A DNA stretch of 64,000 nucleotides, from NCBI GenBank assembly GCA_965248535.1, contig CBDFJR010000002.1, positions 2,016,001 to 2,080,000 on the forward strand, written 5' to 3'. The stretch comes from Phormidesmis sp. (lineage in GTDB: Bacteria; Cyanobacteriota; Cyanobacteriia; Leptolyngbyales; Leptolyngbyaceae). Position 1 is the first letter of the stretch. The number at the start of each line of letters is the position of its first letter. The position numbers and the translations under genes were made by a program. A model generated the notes under the pieces. That model was given only the letters and a program-made list of their open reading frames with translations, had not been told where the DNA came from and ran no database searches. Below, in pieces: positions 50,470 to 57,810 of the stretch.

Positions 50470-50588
50470 AGATTTTCTCCTTGATACATTTTTAGTTTTT
50501 AATGCTCGATCGCTCCTAGCGCTTTCAGCGTAGCTTTTTCTGCTTCAGTTAAGCCTTTGACTCCCGTGATGTTCATGCCTTCATAGGG
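50467..50588. repeat. 122-bp direct repeat copy 2: native NACHT-WD40 3' end plus leader plus ATG
   Basis: Matches 49670-49791. Confidence 0.95.
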
Positions 50589-53500
50589 TTTGTTACTCAG
50601 CGTTTTCAAACACTCACCTGATTCAATATCCCAAAATTTAATTGTTTCATCATAGCCACCACTCACCAGTGTTCTATTATCTGGAACAAAAGTCACTGAG
50701 CGTACTCGATTGGTATGACCATTAAAAGTTTTAAGGCATTCCCCAGTGTAAGCATCCCAGAGCTTTACTGTGTGATCAAGACTACCAGTAGCTAAGAATT
50801 TACTATCACAACTAAAGGATACTGAATCTATTTCACTGGTGTGTCCTTGCAAAGTTTTGAGATATTTTCCCGTACGGAGATTCCATGTTTTGACTGTTTG
50901 GTCTCGACTACCACTAGCTAAAAACTCTCCATTGGGTGCAATAGCGACAGAGCGAATACGATCAGTATGTCCTGTTAAAACTTCACGACATTCTCCTAAG
51001 TTTACGTCCCATAACTTTACTGTTTTGTCAGTGCTGACACTAGCAATAGTTGCACCATCCGGGCTAATGGCAACTGAATTGATCCAGCCATCATGCTGTC
51101 CTTGAAGAGTTTTCAAACATTCACCACTAAGAACATCCCATAACTTTATAGTGCCGTCATCATTACAACTCACCAGAGTCGCACCGTCAGGACTGAATAC
51201 AACTCCTGCCATGTGACTATTGTGCCCATGTAGGGTTTTAAGGCAGTCTCCAGTGTGGATGTCCCAAAGTTTGACTGTATCATCACCACTGCCACTAGCA
51301 AGAGTTTTACCATCAAGACTAATCGCAACTGAACTTATCCACTTGTGATGTCCCTCTAAGGTTCTAAAACAATCTCCAGTGGATGTATTCCATAGCTTGA
51401 CTGTCTTATCATTACTGCCAACAGCAAGAAATCTTCCATCGGGACTAACGACAACTGTATCGATCCAACGACTATTGCCTTGGAATGTCCTCAAACAATT
51501 GCCAGTCTGCGTATTCCAGAGCTTCACTGTCTGATCATCACTGATGCTAACAAAGATTGTGTTGTCTGAATTAAAAGCAATTTTCCTGACTCTAGCGGAA
51601 TGCCCTTCTATAGTTTTGATACATTCGCCAGTACTAATATCCCAAAACTTTATCGTTTGATCTCTACTACCACTTGCAAGAGTTTTATTGTCTTGACTGA
51701 AGGCAATTGATCGTACGCTACGAGTATGACCTTCTAAAATCTTAATGCACTCATGGGTAAAAGGATTCCAGAGCTTTACTGTGTTATCTGAACTACCGCT
51801 TGCAAGAATCTTGCCATCATAACTGAATACTAATGAGAGAACGGACTTAGTTTGTCCTTCTAAGGTTTTCAAACATTGTTCTGAATCTATATCCCAGAAC
51901 TTGATCGTTTTGTCAAAACTACCACTTGCTAAGGTTTTCTCATCAGGAGAGACTGCGATTGCCCATATTATATCTGTATGCCCTTGAAAAGTCTTCAAAC
52001 AGCCTCCCGTCTGAACATCCCAGAGTTTTATGGTTTTATCATCACTGCTACTGGCAAGAATTGTACCGTCTGAATTAAAAGCTATTGATCTCACTGCACC
52101 AGCATGACCCGCCATAACTCTTAGGCATTTCCCGGTATCACTATTCCATAGTTTTACTATTCCTTCATGCCCACCACTAGCAAGAATCAAGCCGTCAGGA
52201 GTAAATGCCACTGAGCTAATCCAATCGCTGTGTCCTCTGAACTTCAGAATTTGCTCACCATTGTCAACTTGCCAAAAGCGAAGTTCACCATCTGCTCCAC
52301 CCGTTACAAATAACTGAGCTTTAGGGCTGAATGCAACGGATAAAAGAAGACCAAAAGCTTCGAGAAAAATAGAATTGGTTAAGTCTGCTTCCGAAAAGTT
52401 AACGTGTCGTAAGCTAGCATTTGTGAAATTAGCACCTTGAAGAATGCTATGGCTAAGATCTCTACCCTCAAGAGCAGTTTTATCCATCGCAACTATCAAT
52501 GTTGCTGTATTGCCTCCGACATAATCTACTTCTACCTTAGTTTTCCCTCGTACTGTATCCAAAATATTTTGGAGGGAAGAATAGTGCGCTACTGAAACAT
52601 GCAACATTGGCAAAATCAGATCTAGTACTGCTTTCGGTAATGATATTTGCCCAAAGCCCGATCGCAACACTTCCAAACTCTCATTCACAAACTCTTTCAA
52701 GGGTGCAATCTGTTTTTCGCGGTGACCAAAATACTCTGACCACTGATAGTCACGCGGTCTCAGGGTGGTATCGACGCAGGGTTGCATCTGTGCTAACTCC
52801 AAAAAATCAGGCGCTAAGGCACCTAATTCAGCGGCAAATTTGTAGGCGACAAAGAACTCTAAGAGCGATCGATGCGCTGGCATATAATCCCCATCAGCAT
52901 TGCGGATCAACATCGTCTGACCCATCATGTCGTAGTGCCAGTGATCCAAGTCTTTCTCTTCCTGAACCACTGAACCAAACAAGCGACGGATACGATCAGG
53001 AAACTCACGATAGTTGAGACTCATGCGATCCGTAGACAACATTTCCCACGACAACTCACACAAGAAATAGAGCTTTTCTGCCAGGGAGGTAAACGTGCGT
53101 TCTGCCTTGATGTCTCGCTCCATTTTGCGTCGTACTGCGTAGAGATAAACACGCGACATATCTACAGGTTTACCCGCTTCAATATCCGGTAGCGCCTCCA
53201 AAATCAATTCTGTCATCACCGGACGACGCGCCAAATCAAGCAATTGTGCGTTGTTCATCACCTGTTGCACCACCTCTGAAGATGCCTGCAACGCCAAGAC
53301 TTGCCGAATTTGCTCATCGTCAAACTTCTCCAGTTCCAGCACCTCAAACTGAGGCGTATCTTCGTTCAGGTTGATGGTTGAGGCTTTAAGTTCCGCATTC
53401 AGTAGCGCCCGTCCTTCTTTGACTTCTGGGAAATGCTCCGTCCGACAGGTCAAAATCACCTTTGCCCCTGGCACGACGATTTTTGCCAATTCCCAAAAGT

Positions 53501-54935
53501 TATTGATCATCTCCTGGCGATCGACCCGCGCTGCCATCTCGTCAAAGCCATCAAAAATCAGCAGCAGCTTGCCCATGCGGTTGAGTTGCTCAAACGCTGA
53601 ATAACCGGGAATTGGAATCTCGTGTTTGCGGAAGAAGAACTCGGAAAACAACGACTCCACGCTCACTGCTTTAGCATAATCGCGCAAGGGAATGACCAGC
53701 GGCAGACGCGGACGATCGACTCCCCGCTTTTGGGCATCCCGATAGCGTTGCAAGGCAACCCAGGCATAGTGCAGCGCAAACCAGGTTTTCCCAGTGCCAA
53801 ACTCACCCAAGACAGAAATATGCTCCTTCGCCGGATCGTCCAGCCATTGGTCAATGTAGCCATCGATCCAGCCATCACGATCGTCGTAACGACTCACCGC
53901 AATGCGCTGCTGTGTCACCGGGTCTAATTCTTCTTTGGTGCAAGCCAGCGGCACGTACTTCTGCTCAATCTGCCGCTGTTGAATTTCTGCCTCTAGCCAA
54001 CTCAGGTATCCACTAAAGTCAGCATCTTGATCCAGCAATTCATCAAAGGTGTAGCAGCCCAAATGAGCGTTTTCGGGTTTCTCAACTTCAGTACGCGCCG
54101 CTCGACTAATCCGTCGGGTCGTGACCAGCCAACCTTCATCGGTGCGCTGCTGTTCCACCGATTGACGCAGCATTCCCACATCGCCAATCTCAGCCGCGCC
54201 TTCCATGCCCCGCACCAGAATGCGATCGTACCGTCCCCGCCGCACCGGAATATTAATCACCCACTCAAAATAATCGTTTTGCCAAATTTCATGGGTCTCA
54301 AAGCGATAGCCCAAGGTTTCAAACCAACCTTTCATCTGTTGCGCCAGCGCAAAGGCTCTACACTGCCGATCCTGAGATTCAGCCGATGGTAAAGCTAAAC
54401 TTTGGGCGGCGAGCCGAGCCATCTCCGTTCGCATTCCCTCTAACGTCGGCAACCGAGTCAATCGTTCTTGAACCGTGCCGATTTGCTGATGGAGCGACTC
54501 TAATTTTTGATTCGTCAACACTTCAGCCGGAGTGCGAGTGCGTTTAGCAACTTCAATAAAAATGGCGGCAAACTGATAAAACTCTCGTCTGGCATCAATG
54601 CCTAGCTCCTGAATTTGTTCGCCTAGGGCATGGCTTGACAGAAACTTCTCGCCTTCTTGCAGCAACAGCGCCGAGTTGTTGCGATCGAGTGCCTTACGAA
54701 AGATCGCTTGGATTGCCAACTGCCGGAAAATCTCCAGCACAGGCTTTGGCTTACCGATGCCATACTCAACCAGGGTGTACTGGTAAACGGCTGTGAAATC
54801 CGCTGGGGGATGATCGGGATCGAGGTTCAGTTGCTTTAACAGCTTAATCACAAGCTCATTGCGCTGAAGCTTGTTTTGCACAACGGGACTCGCAAACCCG
54901 ACAATGATATCGATTAGCTTAACCAACTCAATCAC
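50499..54935 (-). CDS. NACHT NTPase with N-terminal helical and Mrr/REase-like domains, pentapeptide repeats and 14 WD40 repeats
   Basis: Walker A GEFGTGKT, Walker B LLIFDGFDE, ILTCR sensor; pentapeptide tract DLSHSILQGANFTNASLRHVNFSEADL; 14 GH...W(D/N)-type repeats counted by eye. Confidence 0.92.
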   Translation of the reverse strand: MIELVKLIDIIVGFASPVVQNKLQRNELVIKLLKQLNLDPDHPPADFTAVYQYTLVEYGIGKPKPVLEIFRQLAIQAIFRKALDRNNSALLLQEGEKFLSSHALGEQIQELGIDARREFYQFAAIFIEVAKRTRTPAEVLTNQKLESLHQQIGTVQERLTRLPTLEGMRTEMARLAAQSLALPSAESQDRQCRAFALAQQMKGWFETLGYRFETHEIWQNDYFEWVINIPVRRGRYDRILVRGMEGAAEIGDVGMLRQSVEQQRTDEGWLVTTRRISRAARTEVEKPENAHLGCYTFDELLDQDADFSGYLSWLEAEIQQRQIEQKYVPLACTKEELDPVTQQRIAVSRYDDRDGWIDGYIDQWLDDPAKEHISVLGEFGTGKTWFALHYAWVALQRYRDAQKRGVDRPRLPLVIPLRDYAKAVSVESLFSEFFFRKHEIPIPGYSAFEQLNRMGKLLLIFDGFDEMAARVDRQEMINNFWELAKIVVPGAKVILTCRTEHFPEVKEGRALLNAELKASTINLNEDTPQFEVLELEKFDDEQIRQVLALQASSEVVQQVMNNAQLLDLARRPVMTELILEALPDIEAGKPVDMSRVYLYAVRRKMERDIKAERTFTSLAEKLYFLCELSWEMLSTDRMSLNYREFPDRIRRLFGSVVQEEKDLDHWHYDMMGQTMLIRNADGDYMPAHRSLLEFFVAYKFAAELGALAPDFLELAQMQPCVDTTLRPRDYQWSEYFGHREKQIAPLKEFVNESLEVLRSGFGQISLPKAVLDLILPMLHVSVAHYSSLQNILDTVRGKTKVEVDYVGGNTATLIVAMDKTALEGRDLSHSILQGANFTNASLRHVNFSEADLTNSIFLEAFGLLLSVAFSPKAQLFVTGGADGELRFWQVDNGEQILKFRGHSDWISSVAFTPDGLILASGGHEGIVKLWNSDTGKCLRVMAGHAGAVRSIAFNSDGTILASSSDDKTIKLWDVQTGGCLKTFQGHTDIIWAIAVSPDEKTLASGSFDKTIKFWDIDSEQCLKTLEGQTKSVLSLVFSYDGKILASGSSDNTVKLWNPFTHECIKILEGHTRSVRSIAFSQDNKTLASGSRDQTIKFWDISTGECIKTIEGHSARVRKIAFNSDNTIFVSISDDQTVKLWNTQTGNCLRTFQGNSRWIDTVVVSPDGRFLAVGSNDKTVKLWNTSTGDCFRTLEGHHKWISSVAISLDGKTLASGSGDDTVKLWDIHTGDCLKTLHGHNSHMAGVVFSPDGATLVSCNDDGTIKLWDVLSGECLKTLQGQHDGWINSVAISPDGATIASVSTDKTVKLWDVNLGECREVLTGHTDRIRSVAIAPNGEFLASGSRDQTVKTWNLRTGKYLKTLQGHTSEIDSVSFSCDSKFLATGSLDHTVKLWDAYTGECLKTFNGHTNRVRSVTFVPDNRTLVSGGYDETIKFWDIESGECLKTLSNKPYEGMNITGVKGLTEAEKATLKALGAIEH

Positions 54936-55147: not shown

Positions 55148-55229
55148 TGCGGATGAAAGGACTTGAACCTTCACTTCTTGCGAAACCAGAACCTAAATCT
55201 GGCGCGTCTACCAATTCCGCCACATCCGC
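55148..55229 (-). tRNA. trnL: tRNA-Leu(UAG)
   Basis: GCGGATG acceptor stem, TGGCGGAATTGGTAGACGC D-arm, CCAGA-TTTAGGT-TCTGG anticodon arm, long variable arm, GGTTCAAGTCC T-arm; CCA not encoded. Confidence 0.97.
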
Positions 55230-55318: not shown

Positions 55319-55651
55319 TCATGAGAGACTGCCCACACTAATAGGAATCAAATTGCCTTCGGGGGTAAACCCTAGCATCATTGCGTCGCCCGATCGGATC
55401 ACCGTTCCCGTCAGGGCGCAGCGTTCTTCTTGGTGAGCGGTGGCGGCGATCGTAGCTCGAAAATCAGACGCAGCGATGGTTGCCGTATAGTCACCCGATT
55501 TTTGCTGGACATAGTTCCACAGGATGTCTCGAATCAATGCCTGATAGCCCTGATTGCCAGAAAGTGATTTTAGCTGTTCCTTTAACTCTCGTTCCAGACG
55601 AATGCTGGTGACTTCCATATCGGTGGTGGTGGTGCGAGTCAAGGTATGCAT
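55319..55651 (-). CDS. Ribbon-helix-helix transcriptional regulator, TrcR (All0854)-like
   Basis: VTSIRLERELKEQLK...GYQALIRDILWNYV RHH pattern; divergent from an Alr0857-family gene; TrcR identity recalled from memory, not searched. Confidence 0.7.
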   Translation of the reverse strand: MHTLTRTTTTDMEVTSIRLERELKEQLKSLSGNQGYQALIRDILWNYVQQKSGDYTATIAASDFRATIAATAHQEERCALTGTVIRSGDAMMLGFTPEGNLIPISVGSLS

Positions 55652-55670: not shown

Positions 55671-55699
55671 TGGACACTTTTATATTACAAGTGTAGTAT
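55671..55699 (+). promoter_or_regulatory. Sigma70-type promoter overlapped by a palindromic operator
   Basis: TGGACA (55671-76), 17 bp spacer, TAGTAT (55694-99); palindrome ATATTACA-AG-TGTAGTAT at 55682-55699. Confidence 0.6.
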
Positions 55700-55775
55700 G
55701 TTAACTGTAGACTGCAAGTTAAGTCCTTCAATATCTTCTGAAATGAACTCTCTACGGCTCTTTTTAACATCGTTT

Positions 55776-55934
55776 TGGCTAGGGCATCGCGTCGGCGATG
55801 GTTCTTGCGAGGCGGGCAGAGTCGTAGTTTTGCCGTTTATGGGCGAGTTTCCAGAGATTAAAAGTTCCCCCACAATTCAGTCCCCATCACTCCGAAGCGG
55901 GAGGGGCAGGCGCGTTCCTGCCCCGGTCTAGCCA
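55776..55934 (+). ncRNA. Candidate structured RNA or leader (unassigned)
   Basis: Closing helix TGGCTAG/CTAGCCA enclosing at least four hairpins; no credible ORF. Confidence 0.45.
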
Positions 55935-55958
55935 GAAAACGCTCAAGTAGTTTTTCTA

Positions 55959-55994
55959 GCCTCCGCTTCACACTCACCAGAAGCGGAGGTTTTT
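55959..55994 (+). terminator. Intrinsic terminator upstream of the Alr0857-like gene
   Basis: GCCTCCGCTTC-10nt-GAAGCGGAGGT followed by TTTT. Confidence 0.7.
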
Positions 55995-56066
55995 GATTGT
56001 TAACCCCTTTGAAACTCATGTAAACCCTTGAAACCCGTAAACCCTGGAACATAGGAGCTACCAGGA

Positions 56067-56477
56067 ATGTTGAAGTTTACCTACACCGAGACGGGGATCA
56101 CCCTTGAGCGGGTCAGCCAATCGCTCGAAGAGTTGGTGATGCTGCGGATTGTGTTAGCGATGCGAGTTGGGCAGCGGCTGATCGTCGAGCCGGGCAGGGC
56201 GACCTTTTTGCTGTCGGCAAATTTGCAGGCTTGGAGGCTGCTGGATGCGGTGGTGCGGCGATCGCTCAATGACGCGATCGAGCTTTGCCAGTGCGATGCA
56301 GACTTCATTGAGGTCAGCCTGCGCGGAAGCTGGATCGCGCAAACCACTAGCAGCGAGGAGGGCATCTTTTTAGCCGAACTGGGCGACTCGCTGCCCGGAA
56401 CGCTGTGGGAGCGGGCCGAGTTTATTATGTTTAAGCTCTGGCAGGAGTCATCGGCGTGCCCGTCTTCGCTGCGATAA
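56067..56477 (+). CDS. Alr0857-family conserved cyanobacterial protein
   Basis: MLKFTYTETG..LE..QSLEE.V..R..LA.RVG, EVSLRGSW and EEGIF pattern; AGGAG RBS upstream; 3' end overlaps menE convergently. Confidence 0.75.
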   Translation: MLKFTYTETGITLERVSQSLEELVMLRIVLAMRVGQRLIVEPGRATFLLSANLQAWRLLDAVVRRSLNDAIELCQCDADFIEVSLRGSWIAQTTSSEEGIFLAELGDSLPGTLWERAEFIMFKLWQESSACPSSLR

Positions 56478-57810
56478 TTTGTCTTAGCTGAGGTTGATTG
56501 ATCTTCCCTTGGGGATTGCGAGGCAAGGTTTCGAGCGAGATCCAATATTTGGGACGCTTGAATTTGCTGAGGGTTTCTTCAAGGGATTTGATTAATTGGC
56601 GGTCAGAAATCGCTGAGGTTTGCGGCACATAGACGGCGGTGACGGCTTGACCCCAGATACGATCGCTGACCCCTAACACACAGACATCTTTAACCAGTTT
56701 GGTGGCCCTTATGGCCGCCTCGACTTCTGCCGGAAAGACGTTTTCGCCGCCTGTAATAATTTTGTTGCTGTCGCGCCCGACAATCTGCAAATAACCGTAG
56801 GGGTCAAAAAATCCCAAATCGTCGGGTTGATAAATGGGCTGCTGCAAAAAATGGGGATAGTAACCCAACATAAGTGAGTCGGCTTGAATGGTGATTTTTC
56901 CGGTTTCACCTGTTGCCAAGGGGTCGCCCTGTTCGTTTTGAATCGTGATTTGAGCGTGAGGTAACGCTTGACCAGCGCCGACTTTGGCGGTTAAGAAATC
57001 CTTTGGTTGCAACGTGACAATTTGGGAGGCGGTTTCGGTCATGCCATAGGTGGGCGCGATCGGGAGTCTATAAAATCTCGCGGCATCCAACAAATCTGAC
57101 CAGGCAGGTGCACCGCCTAACAAGATCGTCTCAAATTGAGATAGCCAAGCAATGGCTGGAGGGTGATCTAAAAGCTTTTGAAGTTGGGTGGGAACGAGGG
57201 AGAGAAAAAAACTTTGAGGGTTGATAGACTGAGCTTCTCCGGCTTCTAGAGCTTTCCACGGGAGAATGACTAACTGCCCGTCTGAGAGAAACGATCGCAT
57301 AAATTGCATCAAACCACTGACGTGATAGAGCGGCAGCACGCAAAACGAATCGACGCGATCGACTGCAAAATAGCGCTGAAATCCTTTTACGGATGCGGTT
57401 AACGTCTCCCAAGTGTGCATCGCAAAGCGAATTTTGCCCGACGTGCCGCCTGTGGGAATCATGATCAGAGGTGACGAATGAAGAGGGAAGGATGATTTTG
57501 GGGGAATGTCTCGGCAAAAAGGCAGCGAGTCTCCCCAGATTAAATCGGGCTTTACTAAGTCAAACACCTGCTGCCACTCGGCATCAACCCAATCGGGATT
57601 GCCCAAAAAAATCGAACAACGGGCAGAACACGCGGCAATGAATCCGGCGAGAAACGCGATCGGGTTGCGTTCGGCTAACAAAATGGTGGGCGGCGTTGCA
57701 TATCGTTGGAGCGCTTGATATCGCTGCTCTGTTAAGTCAGTCAGGGCTTGACTGCTGTGACCGACCAGCCAGTTTTCTCGGTGCCGATGCTGAATTAAAG
57801 ACTTTGCCAC
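56431..57810 (-). CDS. menE: 2-succinylbenzoate-CoA ligase
   Basis: PTGGTSGK AMP-binding motif, LPLYHVSG, YGMTET and IITGGENVFP; men cluster context. Confidence 0.92.
   Translation of the reverse strand: MAKSLIQHRHRENWLVGHSSQALTDLTEQRYQALQRYATPPTILLAERNPIAFLAGFIAACSARCSIFLGNPDWVDAEWQQVFDLVKPDLIWGDSLPFCRDIPPKSSFPLHSSPLIMIPTGGTSGKIRFAMHTWETLTASVKGFQRYFAVDRVDSFCVLPLYHVSGLMQFMRSFLSDGQLVILPWKALEAGEAQSINPQSFFLSLVPTQLQKLLDHPPAIAWLSQFETILLGGAPAWSDLLDAARFYRLPIAPTYGMTETASQIVTLQPKDFLTAKVGAGQALPHAQITIQNEQGDPLATGETGKITIQADSLMLGYYPHFLQQPIYQPDDLGFFDPYGYLQIVGRDSNKIITGGENVFPAEVEAAIRATKLVKDVCVLGVSDRIWGQAVTAVYVPQTSAISDRQLIKSLEETLSKFKRPKYWISLETLPRNPQGKINQPQLRQIIAAKTGTPMTPARA

What the first reader, a model, noticed from the sequence alone, without database searches (positions are those of the whole stretch)
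55700..56066. Candidate structured non-coding RNA between a TrcR-like repressor and an Alr0857-family gene
Seen: downstream of a canonical promoter lies a GC-rich ORF-free segment with an outer helix TGGCTAG(55776-82)/CTAGCCA(55928-34). It encloses hairpins CATCGC-GTCG-GCGATG (55785-800), GGCAGAG/TTTTGCC (55815-34), CTCC/GGAG (55890-903) and GGGGCAGG/CCTGCCCC (55903-24). A strong intrinsic terminator (55959-94) follows before the CDS. I do not recognise it as a tRNA, SRP, 6S, tmRNA or riboswitch. Inference: a discrete ~290-nt RNA or attenuator, possibly induced by translational stress. From unverified memory, the Nostoc PCC 7120 locus has an HNH gene between these two genes, which would raise the possibility of an RNA-protein module reduced in this strain.
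Basis: partly seen in the sequence, partly recalled or inferred. Interest (0 to 1): 0.72.

Follow-up and report, generated by a model that had tools for sequence, protein, structure and literature searches.

The report
Translated structured leader with terminator switch
The supposedly gene-free stretch is a folded RNA leader that carries a short, probably translated reading frame and a switchable stop signal in front of stress-response genes, and it may let cyanobacteria sense how well their ribosomes are working.

Summary
The helices, promoter and terminator exist, but the segment is not ORF-free. Window 55743-55931 is a 62-codon frame, the positional homolog of Anabaena asr0855. It lies between a TrcR operator/promoter (55671-55700) and a conserved terminator (55959-55994), ahead of an alr0857-family gene.

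In relatives this frame stays open (64 of 66 loci; other frames 3 of 132), yet dN/dS is 0.7-0.83, like off-frame controls. Conservation is therefore at RNA level. Three parts show covariation: a nested 5' hairpin, hairpin P1 inside the ORF, and the terminator.

An upstream copy (A, 55894-55904) of the terminator's 3' arm can pair with its 5' arm. In 69 of 77 sequences the RNA cut before the 3' arm folds into this antiterminator junction.

Best reading (about 0.5): a TrcR-controlled leader whose own translation decides between read-through and termination.

Against it, published Anabaena RNA-seq shows no drop across the terminator.

No Rfam family matches. Papers list it only as hypothetical asr0855 or "orf1". 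The HNH gene found in most relatives was lost here. A second subfamily of the cassette heads HNH genes and tRNA arrays. Earlier unchecked notes of this scan describe analogous leaders in other phyla.

The parts
55319..55651 (-). trcR homolog (ribbon-helix-helix repressor), transcribed divergently from the leader
   Evidence: 110-aa ORF. It is 65-94% identical to cyanobacterial homologs over the full length. TrcR is named after all0854 of Wang et al. 2023. No Pfam hit.
55671..55699 (+). Promoter of the leader: -35 TGGACA (55671-76), 17-nt spacer, -10 TAGTAT (55694-99). The transcript start is inferred near 55706.
   Evidence: Consensus scan. GTGTAGTAT was found exactly in 71 of 71 related intergenic regions, and the -35 box is conserved in the alignment. 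The start site is inferred, not measured.
55683..55700 (.). TrcR operator. The minus strand reads ATACTACACTTGTAATAT.
   Evidence: 16 of 18 matches to the footprinted motif ATACTACACTTGTATTAC quoted in section 7 of PMC10272220, read.
55743..55931 (+). Leader ORF of 62 codons plus TAG. It is the positional and frame homolog of asr0855 and of 'orf1'.
   Evidence: The frame is open for at least 58 codons in 64 of 66 loci, against 2 and 1 of 66 for the other two frames. It is open in 26 of 27 loci of an independent genome sample. dN/dS is 0.70-0.83, like off-frame controls.
55750..55827 (+). 5' RNA domain: long-range helix CTCTACGGCTC (55750-60) with GAGTCGTAG (55819-27), enclosing hairpin CATCGC-GTCG-GCGATG (55785-55800)
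   Evidence: RNAalifold on the window and 2 close relatives. The homologous nested hairpin H1(H2(H3)) in 29 other leaders is 77% paired, against 31-49% when partners are slid, and has 53 cells changed on both sides against 25 in shuffles (0/500). The window's own fit to that model was aligned by eye only.
55894..55904 (+). Box A, GAAGCGGGAGG. It lies inside the ORF (codons AGC GGG AGG), resembles a Shine-Dalgarno site, and is a near copy of the terminator's 3' arm. It is the proposed antiterminator strand.
   Evidence: It is nearly invariant in 38 and 77 aligned leaders, synonymous positions included. A and C agree at a mean of 7.9 of 10 positions. A:B is 91.3% paired, with 4 of 9 pairs changed on both sides.
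55903..55924 (+). Hairpin P1, GGGGCAGG-CGCGTT-CCTGCCCC, inside the ORF and ending 4 nt before the stop codon
   Evidence: 6 of 7 P1 pairs show changes on both sides. The window has GG/CC where most relatives have UA/UA.
55925..55961 (+). Hairpin P2 (GAAAAC 55935-40 with GTTTTT 55950-55, extended by CTAG/CTAG and GG/CC). It holds the ORF stop codon at 55929-31.
   Evidence: Predicted fold. Other lineages have a hairpin of unrelated sequence at the same place; this was read and not counted formally.
55959..55994 (+). Intrinsic terminator: arm B CCTCCGCTTC (55960-69), 10-nt loop, arm C GAAGCGGAGG (55980-89), T5 (55990-94)
   Evidence: 7 of 11 pairs changed on both sides and 95.7% paired. The window carries a compensated C-G to U-A pair. 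The full-module minimum-energy fold holds the terminator in 76 of 77 sequences.
56067..56477 (+). alr0857-family gene, the first gene after the leader. Its ribosome-binding site AGGAG lies at 56054-58.
   Evidence: NCBIfam NF045647 alr0857_fam, E 2.1e-46, 157 bits against a cut-off of 75. No Pfam hit.

Best explanation
Window 55706-55994 is the 5' leader of a TrcR-repressed operon, which here holds only the alr0857-family gene.

The leader is a folded RNA that carries a reading frame, kept open as if it is translated (the asr0855 family). The peptide sequence does not appear to matter. What is conserved is that the frame stays open, together with the RNA elements inside it and after it.

Box A lies inside the ORF. 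It can pair with the 5' arm (B) of the terminator and, with hairpins P1 and P2, forms a three-way junction (the antiterminator). This junction is predicted to form first during transcription. The more stable B:C terminator can form easily only if A is kept away from B.

Proposed mechanism:
- A ribosome that follows the polymerase closely covers A, P1 and P2. The terminator then forms and transcription stops.
- If ribosomes are slow, stalled or absent, A:B persists and the polymerase reads through into alr0857. In most relatives it reads into an IscB-type HNH nuclease gene, alr0857 or tRNA arrays.

Together with TrcR this would be a second, translation-sensing lock on a translational-stress regulon.

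Shown here: the operator and promoter match, ORF conservation without amino-acid selection, covariation in P1, the terminator and the 5' domain, the A/C repeat, and the predicted alternative folds.

Inferred: that the ORF is translated, that ribosome position chooses the fold, the direction of the switch, and the transcript start.
For: 1. TrcR context. The operator matches the published motif at 16 of 18 positions and overlaps the -10 box. In Anabaena, asr0855, alr0856 and alr0857 rise 7-9 fold in the trcR mutant (Table 1).

2. Frame kept open. 64 of 66 loci keep it open for at least 58 codons upstream of A, against 2 of 66 and 1 of 66 for the other frames. In a separate genome sample the count is 26 of 27. 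Among 46 non-redundant leaders the frame is open in 38, the other frames in 4 of 92, and dinucleotide shuffles mostly in 0-10%. The stop codon after or inside P1 varies between TAA, TAG and TGA (48, 16, 2).

3. No selection on the peptide. dN/dS is 0.83, 0.70 and 0.79 in three clades. Off-frame controls give 0.81-1.02. The neighbouring HNH gene gives 0.13.

4. RNA constraints. For P1 plus the terminator, 13 of 18 pairs changed on both sides, 94.9% are paired, and 0 of 500 shuffles reach this. The 5' domain shows covariation as well.

5. The switch. A:B is 91.3% paired. L056, L104 and L105 carry changes in A matched by changes in B, and in L104 and L105 also in C. RNA cut after B folds with at least 5 of 8 A:B pairs in 69 of 77 sequences. 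The full module folds as the terminator in 76 of 77 and is on average 6.8 kcal/mol more stable. For the window the values are -35.7 (cut RNA), -48.1 (terminator) and -43.2 (forced antiterminator).

6. Behaviour as a cassette.
- Extra copies each have an operator-like site 210-250 nt upstream and their own 67-81 codon ORF.
- They stand before HNH genes and HNH remnants, and in L111 before an ORF read by eye as a threonine dehydratase.
- tRNA arrays lie downstream in 6 of 9 of these loci.
- The leader is retained where HNH is lost.
Against: 1. Supplementary Data 2 of Wang et al. 2023 gives these expression values:
- asr0855: 23.4 in wild type and 214.6 in the trcR mutant (length 252).
- alr0856: 97.1 and 701.5 (length 546).
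- alr0857: 46.8 and 397.1 (length 390).
There is no drop across the terminator in unstressed cells. Either termination is weak there or the switch acts otherwise. The normalisation is not stated in what I saw.

2. In Microcoleus the hairpin is followed by CATTTGATT, and in subfamily 2 by TTATTTTT, not by a clean U-tract.

3. A:B covariation is modest. Slid controls reach similar covariation scores, and 123 of 500 shuffles reach the count of pair types.

4. No regulatory codon run was identified. The ORF, at 60-120 codons, is long for a classical leader peptide.

5. Translation of the ORF is inferred only. No Shine-Dalgarno site precedes the ATG in the window.

6. Alignment A2 was fitted to the model that contains P1 and the terminator, and the sequences are related. 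The counts therefore overstate independence.
Confidence: 0.5

Rival explanations
1. The leader RNA is a partner of the IscB-type HNH nuclease. It could be an omega-RNA-like cofactor, an RNA antitoxin as in type III toxin-antitoxin pairs, or the nuclease's own autoregulatory binding site. The terminator would set the ratio of RNA to nuclease mRNA. In this window the nuclease was lost and the RNA is a leftover.
For: - 60 of 81 related loci have a 170-180 aa HNH gene directly after the terminator. A second leader subfamily precedes a paralogous HNH.
- The HNH domain is closest to IscB and Cas9 HNH domains: NCBIfam guided_IscB E 5.6e-16 (below its cut-off), PDB TbaIscB 1.3e-13.
- The 5' domain and the junction nucleotides are conserved at RNA level.
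- The order promoter, structured RNA, terminator, nuclease resembles ToxI-ToxN and omega-RNA-IscB. That comparison is recalled, apart from the IshB passages read.
Against: - A frame kept open through the RNA is not explained.
- The leader is retained in at least 12 loci without HNH, this window included. Other loci show only HNH remnants or other downstream genes.
- No Rfam HEARO or other family matches.
- An RNA-binding PLMP-like N-terminal domain could not be shown.
- No guide-like variable 5' segment was seen.
Confidence: 0.15
2. It is simply a small protein gene (asr0855 family, here 62 aa) followed by an ordinary terminator. The RNA conservation would be incidental or would serve mRNA stability.
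For: - The ORF is conserved in position and frame.
- It is annotated as a hypothetical protein of 83 aa and listed as a clade signature protein.
- It is drawn as 'orf1' in Supplementary Fig. S9 of PMC8421152.
- The peptides share short motifs: hydrophobic residues then F-x-G, and SGR[YC][RK].
Against: - dN/dS is 0.70-0.83, indistinguishable from off-frame controls, and there is no codon-position periodicity: 0.13, 0.10 and 0.12, against 0.034, 0.023 and 0.134 for HNH.
- The shared peptide motifs coincide with invariant RNA elements whose synonymous sites do not vary.
- Base-pair covariation runs through the ORF.
- No Pfam or NCBIfam family matches.
Confidence: 0.12
3. The three-way junction (A:B, P1, P2), perhaps with the 5' domain, is a sensor for a small molecule, a tRNA or a protein. 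It would work like a riboswitch or T-box and stabilise or break the antiterminator. The ORF would be secondary.
For: - Near-invariant unpaired nucleotides sit around the junction: GGGAGG, A-Y-A-Y-A-R-G-A after P1, and TTTTC before B.
- The antiterminator is predicted to form first.
- The cassette is linked to tRNA arrays.
Against: - No Rfam riboswitch or T-box match even at E up to 10.
- Riboswitch aptamers are not normally kept inside a frame held open over 60-120 codons.
- No specifier-like or NCCA-pairing motif was identified. This was looked at by eye only.
Confidence: 0.08
4. The terminated transcript of about 290 nt is a stand-alone regulatory RNA that acts in trans under translational stress, possibly with dual function. 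Read-through into alr0857 would be a by-product.
For: - Its own promoter and a strong terminator delimit an RNA of about 290 nt.
- Sequence is conserved at RNA level.
- An 89-nt contig in two metatranscriptome libraries of one study covers 55889-55977 with 2-3 differences. The tool warns that this does not show transcription.
Against: - No target complementarity was sought or found.
- The element is always directly upstream of, and in the same direction as, the next gene. In Nostocales the next gene's ribosome-binding site begins 3-6 nt after the U-tract.
- Anabaena RNA-seq shows downstream genes at least as abundant as asr0855.
Confidence: 0.08

Closest known systems
Leader-peptide (ribosome-mediated) transcription attenuators such as trpL, leuL and hisL, and antibiotic-responsive attenuators of resistance genes found by Term-seq (Dar et al. 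2016, recalled, not read here)
   Same: A short frame that looks translated lies in a 5' leader. Mutually exclusive antiterminator and terminator helices share one strand. One antiterminator strand lies inside the ORF, so ribosome position can choose the fold. The regulon responds to ribosome-targeting antibiotics.
   Different: The ORF is much longer (60-120 codons) and runs through a conserved, covarying RNA domain. No run of regulatory codons was found. There are three elements (A, B, C) rather than four. It is combined with a dedicated repressor, TrcR. Dependence on translation is untested, and published RNA-seq shows no drop across the terminator.
asr0855 of Anabaena sp. PCC 7120 (hypothetical protein) and 'orf1' upstream of all8564
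   Same: Same position between trcR and the HNH/alr0857 genes, and same frame and motifs. asr0855 is 252 nt, the same length as the Nostoc sp. T09 leader ORF in L068 (249 nt plus stop). asr0855 is derepressed in the trcR mutant. 'orf1' is drawn between the mapped transcript start and all8564.
   Different: In the papers I read (passages, sections 7 and 13 and supplements of PMC10272220; passages and supplement of PMC8421152; one passage of PMC2823733) it is only a hypothetical protein or an unlabelled ORF. No leader, terminator or RNA structure is described. The words 'leader', 'terminator' and 'attenuat' occur 0 times in the main text of PMC8421152.
omega-RNA / HEARO RNA of IscB, and the IshB lineage (PLMP+HNH, about 180 aa)
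   Same: A structured RNA of about 300 nt lies directly upstream of, and co-oriented with, a small nuclease whose HNH domain is closest to IscB and Cas9. IshB is described as an HNH-only relative of unknown function (passages in PMC11610941 and PMC13284715).
   Different: There is no Rfam HEARO match and no RuvC domain. No transposon context was noted in the loci read, though this was not searched. The RNA carries a conserved open frame. The window has no HNH gene at all. A PLMP domain was not demonstrated.
TrcR regulon promoters (Wang et al. [quoted passage not shown] 2021)
   Same: The operator overlaps the -10 box, the arrangement with trcR is divergent, and the downstream gene families are the same.
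   Different: Those papers explain regulation by the repressor alone. The leader structure and the alternative folds downstream of the promoter are additional.

Membership tests
TrcR-regulated promoter (Wang et al. 2023) | 18-nt operator ATACTACACTTGTATTAC overlapping the -10 box or transcript start | tested here: met
   Window 55683-55700 (minus strand) matches at 16 of 18 positions and overlaps TAGTAT at 55694-99.
TrcR-regulated promoter (Wang et al. 2023) | Binding by TrcR and derepression in a trcR mutant or under translational stress | not testable with these tools
   Shown only for the Anabaena orthologous locus: EMSA and footprint on the asr0855-all0854 intergenic region, and 7-9 fold induction.
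asr0855 family (leader ORF) | Small ORF between trcR and the HNH/alr0857 genes, in frame with the AGC-GGG-AGG box and ending at or just after hairpin P1 | tested here: met
   Window ORF 55743-55931. The same layout occurs in 64 of 66 loci. No Pfam or NCBIfam profile exists to test sequence membership.
Intrinsic (factor-independent) terminator | GC-rich hairpin followed directly by a U-tract | tested here: met
   A 10-bp stem at 55960-69 and 55980-89, plus the G-U pair 55959/55990, is followed by T5 at 55990-94. The stem covaries. Activity in vivo was not tested. The scan allows loops of 3-8 nt only.
Leader-peptide transcription attenuator | Mutually exclusive antiterminator and terminator sharing one strand | tested here: met
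   A:B against B:C. Predicted folds: 69 of 77 antiterminator in RNA cut after B, and 76 of 77 terminator in the full module. This is computational only.
Leader-peptide transcription attenuator | Translated leader ORF that overlaps an antiterminator strand | tested here: inconclusive
   The ORF is kept open across the phylum and box A lies inside it. Translation itself was not observed.
Leader-peptide transcription attenuator | Regulatory codons, or a stalling signal that ties the switch to a specific cue | not tested
   No systematic codon analysis was done. Only the invariant AGC GGG AGG (Shine-Dalgarno-like) box was noted.
Leader-peptide transcription attenuator | Condition-dependent premature termination in vivo | tested here: inconclusive
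   Published per-gene values show no drop from asr0855 to alr0856 and alr0857 in wild type or the trcR mutant. No stress time course for these genes was found in the stored supplement, which was cut when stored.
HEARO / omega-RNA (Rfam) and any other Rfam family, including T-box and riboswitches | Covariance-model match | tested here: not met
   No match overlaps the leader in the window at gathering score or at E up to 10, nor in 10 related loci at E up to 1.
alr0857 family (downstream gene) | NCBIfam NF045647 above its cut-off | tested here: met
   E 2.1e-46, 157 bits against a cut-off of 75, for window 56067-56474.
IshB (PLMP + HNH), for the nuclease of related loci | IscB/Cas9-type HNH domain | tested here: met
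   guided_IscB E 5.6e-16, but 58.6 bits is below the 175-bit cut-off. TbaIscB E 1.3e-13 by profile. Foldseek top hits are Cas9 and IscB HNH domains.
IshB (PLMP + HNH), for the nuclease of related loci | N-terminal PLMP domain | tested here: inconclusive
   There is no PDB sequence hit for residues 1-80. The profile matches only the HNH part. The fold search is dominated by HNH. The resemblance of NYLPL...RAI.LL..GKAE to the PLMP motif is recalled, not tested.

The most novel reading that the evidence does not exclude
The asr0855-type leader is a dedicated sensor of translation performance. It is a folded RNA that must itself be translated, and the ribosome's progress through a covarying 5' hairpin and a Shine-Dalgarno-like box decides between an antiterminator junction and a terminator. 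As a portable cassette (TrcR operator, leader, terminator) it would gate IscB-type HNH nucleases, alr0857 and the spare tRNA arrays of cyanobacteria. That would supply the unexplained link between ribosome stress and the TrcR regulon. Unchecked notes of this scan describe analogous devices before HNH and tRNA genes in other phyla and in phages.
Probability: 0.3. Interest if true: 0.8.

Novelty: new variant of a known kind. Interest (0 to 1): 0.62.

Why it matters
TrcR controls the cyanobacterial response to ribosome-targeting stress, which includes RtcB, spare tRNA arrays and HNH nucleases. How stress is sensed is stated to be unknown (discussion of PMC10272220).

A leader that reads out its own translation, directly beside trcR and at the head of the tRNA-array/HNH cassettes, would be a second regulatory layer that can be tested directly.

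It would also re-annotate a 'signature hypothetical protein' (asr0855) as a cis-regulatory element. It adds an RNA family missing from Rfam. And it shows that a conserved open frame and a conserved RNA fold can coexist without selection on the peptide, which is a caution for both small-protein and ncRNA catalogues.

Tried and rejected
- **Rfam.** No family matched at either threshold in the window or in 10 related loci.
- **Single-sequence folding.** Not significant: z = -1.39 and -1.71.
- **ArfA/BrfA-like rescue factor made from a hairpin-truncated mRNA.** Considered because of the basic SGRYR motif next to an in-ORF hairpin. Dropped because dN/dS is about 0.8.
- **Programmed frameshift at the Shine-Dalgarno-like box plus hairpin, or a second ORF running through the terminator.** The alternative frames downstream of A are not consistently open: 3-69 codons depending on the lineage. 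In the window the -1 frame is open to TGA 55994-96, but I saw no start codon or slippery site.
- **T-box-like reading.** No model hit. The GGUAC resemblance is superficial.
- **PLMP domain of the HNH protein.** Not demonstrable.
- **Public reads.** Only contigs were available. Metatranscriptome contigs of relatives (two runs of one study) cover 55889-55977 and join 55948-55999 to the alr0857 gene with 158 other letters in between. The tool states that this does not show transcription, ends or strand.
- **Stress time course.** The stored, cut supplement of PMC8421152 holds no asr0855, alr0856 or alr0857 rows.
- **RNAalifold on all 29 5' domains.** It called only helix H1. H2 and H3 were then tested as a named structure.
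- **trcR loci without the leader.** Model R1 found no match (E up to 1) in seven trcR loci that lack alr0857 and HNH (L003, L004, L006, L007, L009, L012, L075). The eighth, L010, gave only a chance-level match (12.9 bits, E 0.75). In two loci with alr0857 it found nothing usable (L043 none, L038 E 0.72). The leader is therefore not universal beside trcR.
Full report
**What is in the window.**
- The finding lies between a 110-aa ORF on the minus strand (55319-55651) and a 136-aa ORF on the plus strand (56067-56477).
- The plus-strand ORF is an alr0857-family protein: NCBIfam NF045647, E 2.1e-46, 157 bits against a cut-off of 75.
- The minus-strand ORF is 65-94% identical to a protein found next to the same genes in many cyanobacteria. 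It corresponds to TrcR (all0854), the ribbon-helix-helix repressor of the translational-stress regulon of Anabaena PCC 7120. I read passages, sections 7 and 13 and supplements of Wang et al. 2023, PMC10272220.
- The footprinted TrcR motif quoted there, ATACTACACTTGTATTAC, matches the minus strand of window 55683-55700 at 16 of 18 positions. It overlaps the plus-strand promoter TGGACA-17-TAGTAT at 55671-55699.
- In Anabaena the order is trcR, asr0855, alr0856 (HNH), alr0857, and the three downstream genes rise 7-9 fold in the trcR mutant (Table 1).

**Check of the observation.**
- Every quoted helix and the terminator are at the stated coordinates.
- No Rfam family matches, at gathering score or at E up to 10.
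- Folding of the single sequence is not better than shuffles: z = -1.39 for 367 nt and -1.71 for 171 nt.
- The segment is not ORF-free. An ATG at 55743 opens a 62-codon frame that ends at TAG 55929-55931.

**Relatives.**
- The search for related loci returned 80 trcR loci.
- Counting the window, 60 of 81 have a 170-180 aa HNH gene followed by alr0857 upstream of trcR.
- Twelve, this window among them, have alr0857 but no HNH.
- Nine have neither; one of these (L080) has only 101 nt of flank.
- All 71 intergenic regions examined contain GTGTAGTAT exactly.
- From that -10 box to the next gene there is a conserved leader of about 290-450 nt.

**A frame that is kept open but not selected as a protein.**
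- I took the frame of the near-invariant box AGC GGG AGG. It is open for 58-116 codons upstream in 64 of 66 loci.
- The exceptions are L062 and L065, where a different frame is open.
- The other two frames reach 58 codons in 2 and 1 of 66 loci, with medians of 15 and 18.
- A start codon ([AG]TG) lies 42-46 nt after the -10 box, or 21 nt in Nostocales.
- The stop follows hairpin P1 by a few nucleotides, or lies in its loop in Microcoleus. It is TAA 48 times, TAG 16 times and TGA twice.
- In an independent sample of genomes (below), 26 of 27 leaders keep the frame open.
- Among 46 non-redundant leaders the frame is open in 38. The other frames are open in 4 of 92, and dinucleotide shuffles are open mostly 0-10% of the time. 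Some of the 8 misses come from my automatic choice of region. The sequences are related, so these are not independent trials.
- The peptide is not under selection. dN/dS is 0.83 in 26 Microcoleus genomes, with off-frames at 0.88 and 1.02 and the adjacent HNH gene at 0.13. It is 0.70 in 9 Nostocales (off-frames 0.81 and 0.98) and 0.79 in 8 Coleofasciculaceae-type loci (0.90 and 0.86). There is no codon-position periodicity.
- No Pfam or NCBIfam family matches the peptides.
- asr0855 is 252 nt, the same length as the Nostoc sp. T09 leader ORF in L068.

**RNA elements, 3' module (window 55881-55997).**
- In 38 and then 77 distinct sequences the module has the same parts: box A (GAAGCGGGAGG), hairpin P1, a purine-rich spacer that holds the stop codon, a hairpin P2 of lineage-specific sequence, and a hairpin B:C.
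- In most lineages a U-tract follows the B:C hairpin.
- On the 77-sequence alignment, P1 plus B:C are 94.9% paired and 13 of 18 pairs changed on both sides. No shuffle of 500 reaches this, and slid controls give 34-60% paired.
- That alignment was fitted to a model that contains these helices, which favours them. The MAFFT alignment of 38 sequences gives the same picture, with 8 of 19 pairs changed on both sides.
- The window itself carries compensated changes. P1 has GG/CC where others have UA/UA, and the terminator has U-A where others have C-G.

**RNA elements, 5' module.**
- In 29 leaders a nested hairpin H1(H2(H3)), with an almost constant 52-nt distance between the H1 arms, is 77% paired, against 31-49% when partners are slid.
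- It has 53 cells changed on both sides against 25 ± 4 in shuffles (0/500). The covariation score is 0.273 against 0.194.
- RNAalifold by itself called only H1.
I made this correspondence by eye.

**The switch.**
- Box A is a near copy of the terminator's 3' arm C. The mean identity is 7.9 of 10 positions over 77 sequences, and both window copies begin GAAGCGG. A is therefore complementary to arm B.
- A:B pairs are 91.3% standard.
- Four of 9 pairs show changes on both sides. L056 has G-C to A-U. In L104 and L105 the change in B is matched in both A and C.
- The statistics are modest: 5/500 and 1/500 shuffles reach the two counts of changes on both sides, 123/500 reach the count of pair types, and slid controls reach similar covariation scores.
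- In predicted folds, RNA cut just after B adopts at least 5 of 8 A:B pairs in 69 of 77 sequences, as a three-way junction with P1 and P2.
- The full module adopts the terminator in 76 of 77 and is on average 6.8 kcal/mol more stable than the forced antiterminator.
- Window values are -35.7 kcal/mol for the cut RNA, -48.1 for the terminator and -43.2 for the forced antiterminator.

**Distribution and context.**
- A covariance model of the 3' module finds one copy in the window's own genome.
- It finds matches in 34 of 151 sampled genomes of the phylum, in 25 of 80 genera.
- Some genomes have several copies. G080, from the same family as the window's genome, has five; G044 has three; G020 and G032 have two each.
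- These extra copies form a second subfamily with GGUGC/GCACC in P1. Each has an operator-like site 210-250 nt upstream and its own 67-81 codon frame ending just after P1.
- They are followed by an all8564-like HNH gene, by HNH plus alr0857, by HNH remnants, or by what I read by eye as a threonine dehydratase gene.
- In 6 of 9 of these loci a tRNA array lies downstream in the same direction (for L118 and L114).
- Two of the G080 copies sit beside TrcR-like paralogs.
- HNH has been lost or reduced to remnants repeatedly while the leader and alr0857 remain: the window group, L026, L028, L030, L050, L062 and L067, and also L083, L095, L100, L104, L105 and L109.
- Model R1 finds no match in seven of the eight trcR loci without alr0857 or HNH, and only a chance-level match (E 0.75) in the eighth, L010. 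It finds nothing usable in L038 and L043.

**Reading.**
- Four observations fit a cis-acting leader in which translation competes with RNA folding: an open frame without peptide selection, RNA covariation running through that frame, an antiterminator strand inside the frame, and cassette-like reuse before different genes.
- I propose that a ribosome close behind the polymerase covers A, P1 and P2, so that B:C forms and transcription ends. A lagging, stalled or absent ribosome leaves A:B in place, and the polymerase reads through.
- This would put a translation-sensing lock behind the TrcR lock.
- The direction of the switch, translation of the frame and the transcript start are all inferences.

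**Evidence against, given in full.**
- Supplementary Data 2 of Wang et al. lists asr0855 at 23.4 (wild type) and 214.6 (mutant), alr0856 at 97.1 and 701.5, and alr0857 at 46.8 and 397.1, for lengths of 252, 546 and 390 nt.
- There is thus no loss of signal across the terminator in unstressed cells. That fits the predicted default of read-through, but not efficient termination during normal translation. I could not see how the values were normalised.
- Microcoleus and subfamily 2 lack a clean U-tract.
- No regulatory codons were identified.
- The 5'-RACE scheme of Santamaria-Gomez et al. 2021 (Supplementary Fig. S9 text) places the all8564 start upstream of 'orf1'. The nuclease mRNA therefore does include the leader.

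**Rivals.**
- RNA partner of the IscB-type HNH nuclease. The HNH domain is closest to IscB and Cas9, and IshB is an uncharacterised PLMP+HNH lineage (passages). This does not explain the open frame or the leader's survival without HNH. A PLMP domain could not be shown.
- A plain small protein. This is contradicted by dN/dS.
- A ligand- or tRNA-sensing junction, or a trans-acting sRNA. Neither is excluded, and neither has specific support.

**Prior knowledge.**
- Full-text searches for 'asr0855', 'alr0857', 'alr0856 / all8564 / all0854' and 'TrcR + cyanobacteri' found 2, 2, 4 and 14 papers.
- Of these I opened only those holding the locus names. They treat the frame as a hypothetical protein (a clade 'signature protein') or as 'orf1' in a supplementary figure.
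- 'Leader', 'terminator' and 'attenuat' occur 0 times in the main text of PMC8421152.
- A search for cyanobacterial leader-peptide attenuation gave nothing pertinent in the 12 listings shown of 156 (listings only).
- Subscription-only papers were not searchable.
- Earlier unchecked notes of this scan report leader-ORF attenuators before HNH, IshB-like and tRNA genes in other phyla and in phages. They agree with my reading, which was formed before I saw them, but they are not independent evidence.

**Verdict.**
The 'structured non-coding RNA' is a structured leader carrying a conserved open frame, with an antiterminator/terminator pair.
- The RNA family appears undescribed, and it is a new variant of a known kind of device.
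- Its regulatory output remains to be shown.

Noticed in passing
window 55148-55229 (-): A tRNA gene (Rfam tRNA, 59.2 bits) lies 90 nt downstream of trcR on the same strand. The same tRNA follows trcR in L001.
   Followed up: no
window 50499-54935 (-): A 1478-aa protein with an NNH5 N-terminal helical domain, a NACHT-associated inactive restriction-endonuclease domain and about 14 WD40 repeats (a STAND/NACHT-type architecture).
   Followed up: no
window 56431-57810 (-): A gene for an AMP-binding enzyme converges on the alr0857-family gene, and the two ORFs overlap by 47 nt at their 3' ends (56431-56477).
   Followed up: no
L111-L115 (genome G080, same family as the window's genome): Five copies of the leader cassette occur in one genome. 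Two sit beside TrcR-like paralogs of 131-142 aa, three are followed by tRNA arrays, and several have decayed HNH frames. A conserved ORF of about 70 aa (...LQKTYSLERRCFL) recurs between cassette and tRNA array in L112, L114 and L115.
   Followed up: partly
L002:2316-2630 (-) and metatranscriptome contigs: In Phormidesmis priestleyi ULC007 an insertion of about 250 nt, carrying palindromic CCCCAAATTGGGG-like repeats, separates the terminator from alr0857. RNA-library contigs of relatives show a 158-nt insertion at the same place (window 55999/56021).
   Followed up: no
L050:2023-2431 (-): The alr0857 homolog of this Leptolyngbyaceae MAG is split into two frames (residues 1-35 and 35-136). This is either a frameshift or a sequencing error.
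   Followed up: no
L062 and L065 leaders: These are the only two of 66 leaders in which the frame upstream of box A is shifted into another frame (71 and 77 codons open there). This could be a compensating indel near A, an assembly error, or decay. L062 also lacks HNH.
   Followed up: no
L117:3374-3445 (+): ARAGORN calls a tRNA with anticodon CTA (labelled tRNA-Pyl, a possible amber suppressor) inside one of the tRNA arrays that follow a subfamily-2 leader.
   Followed up: no
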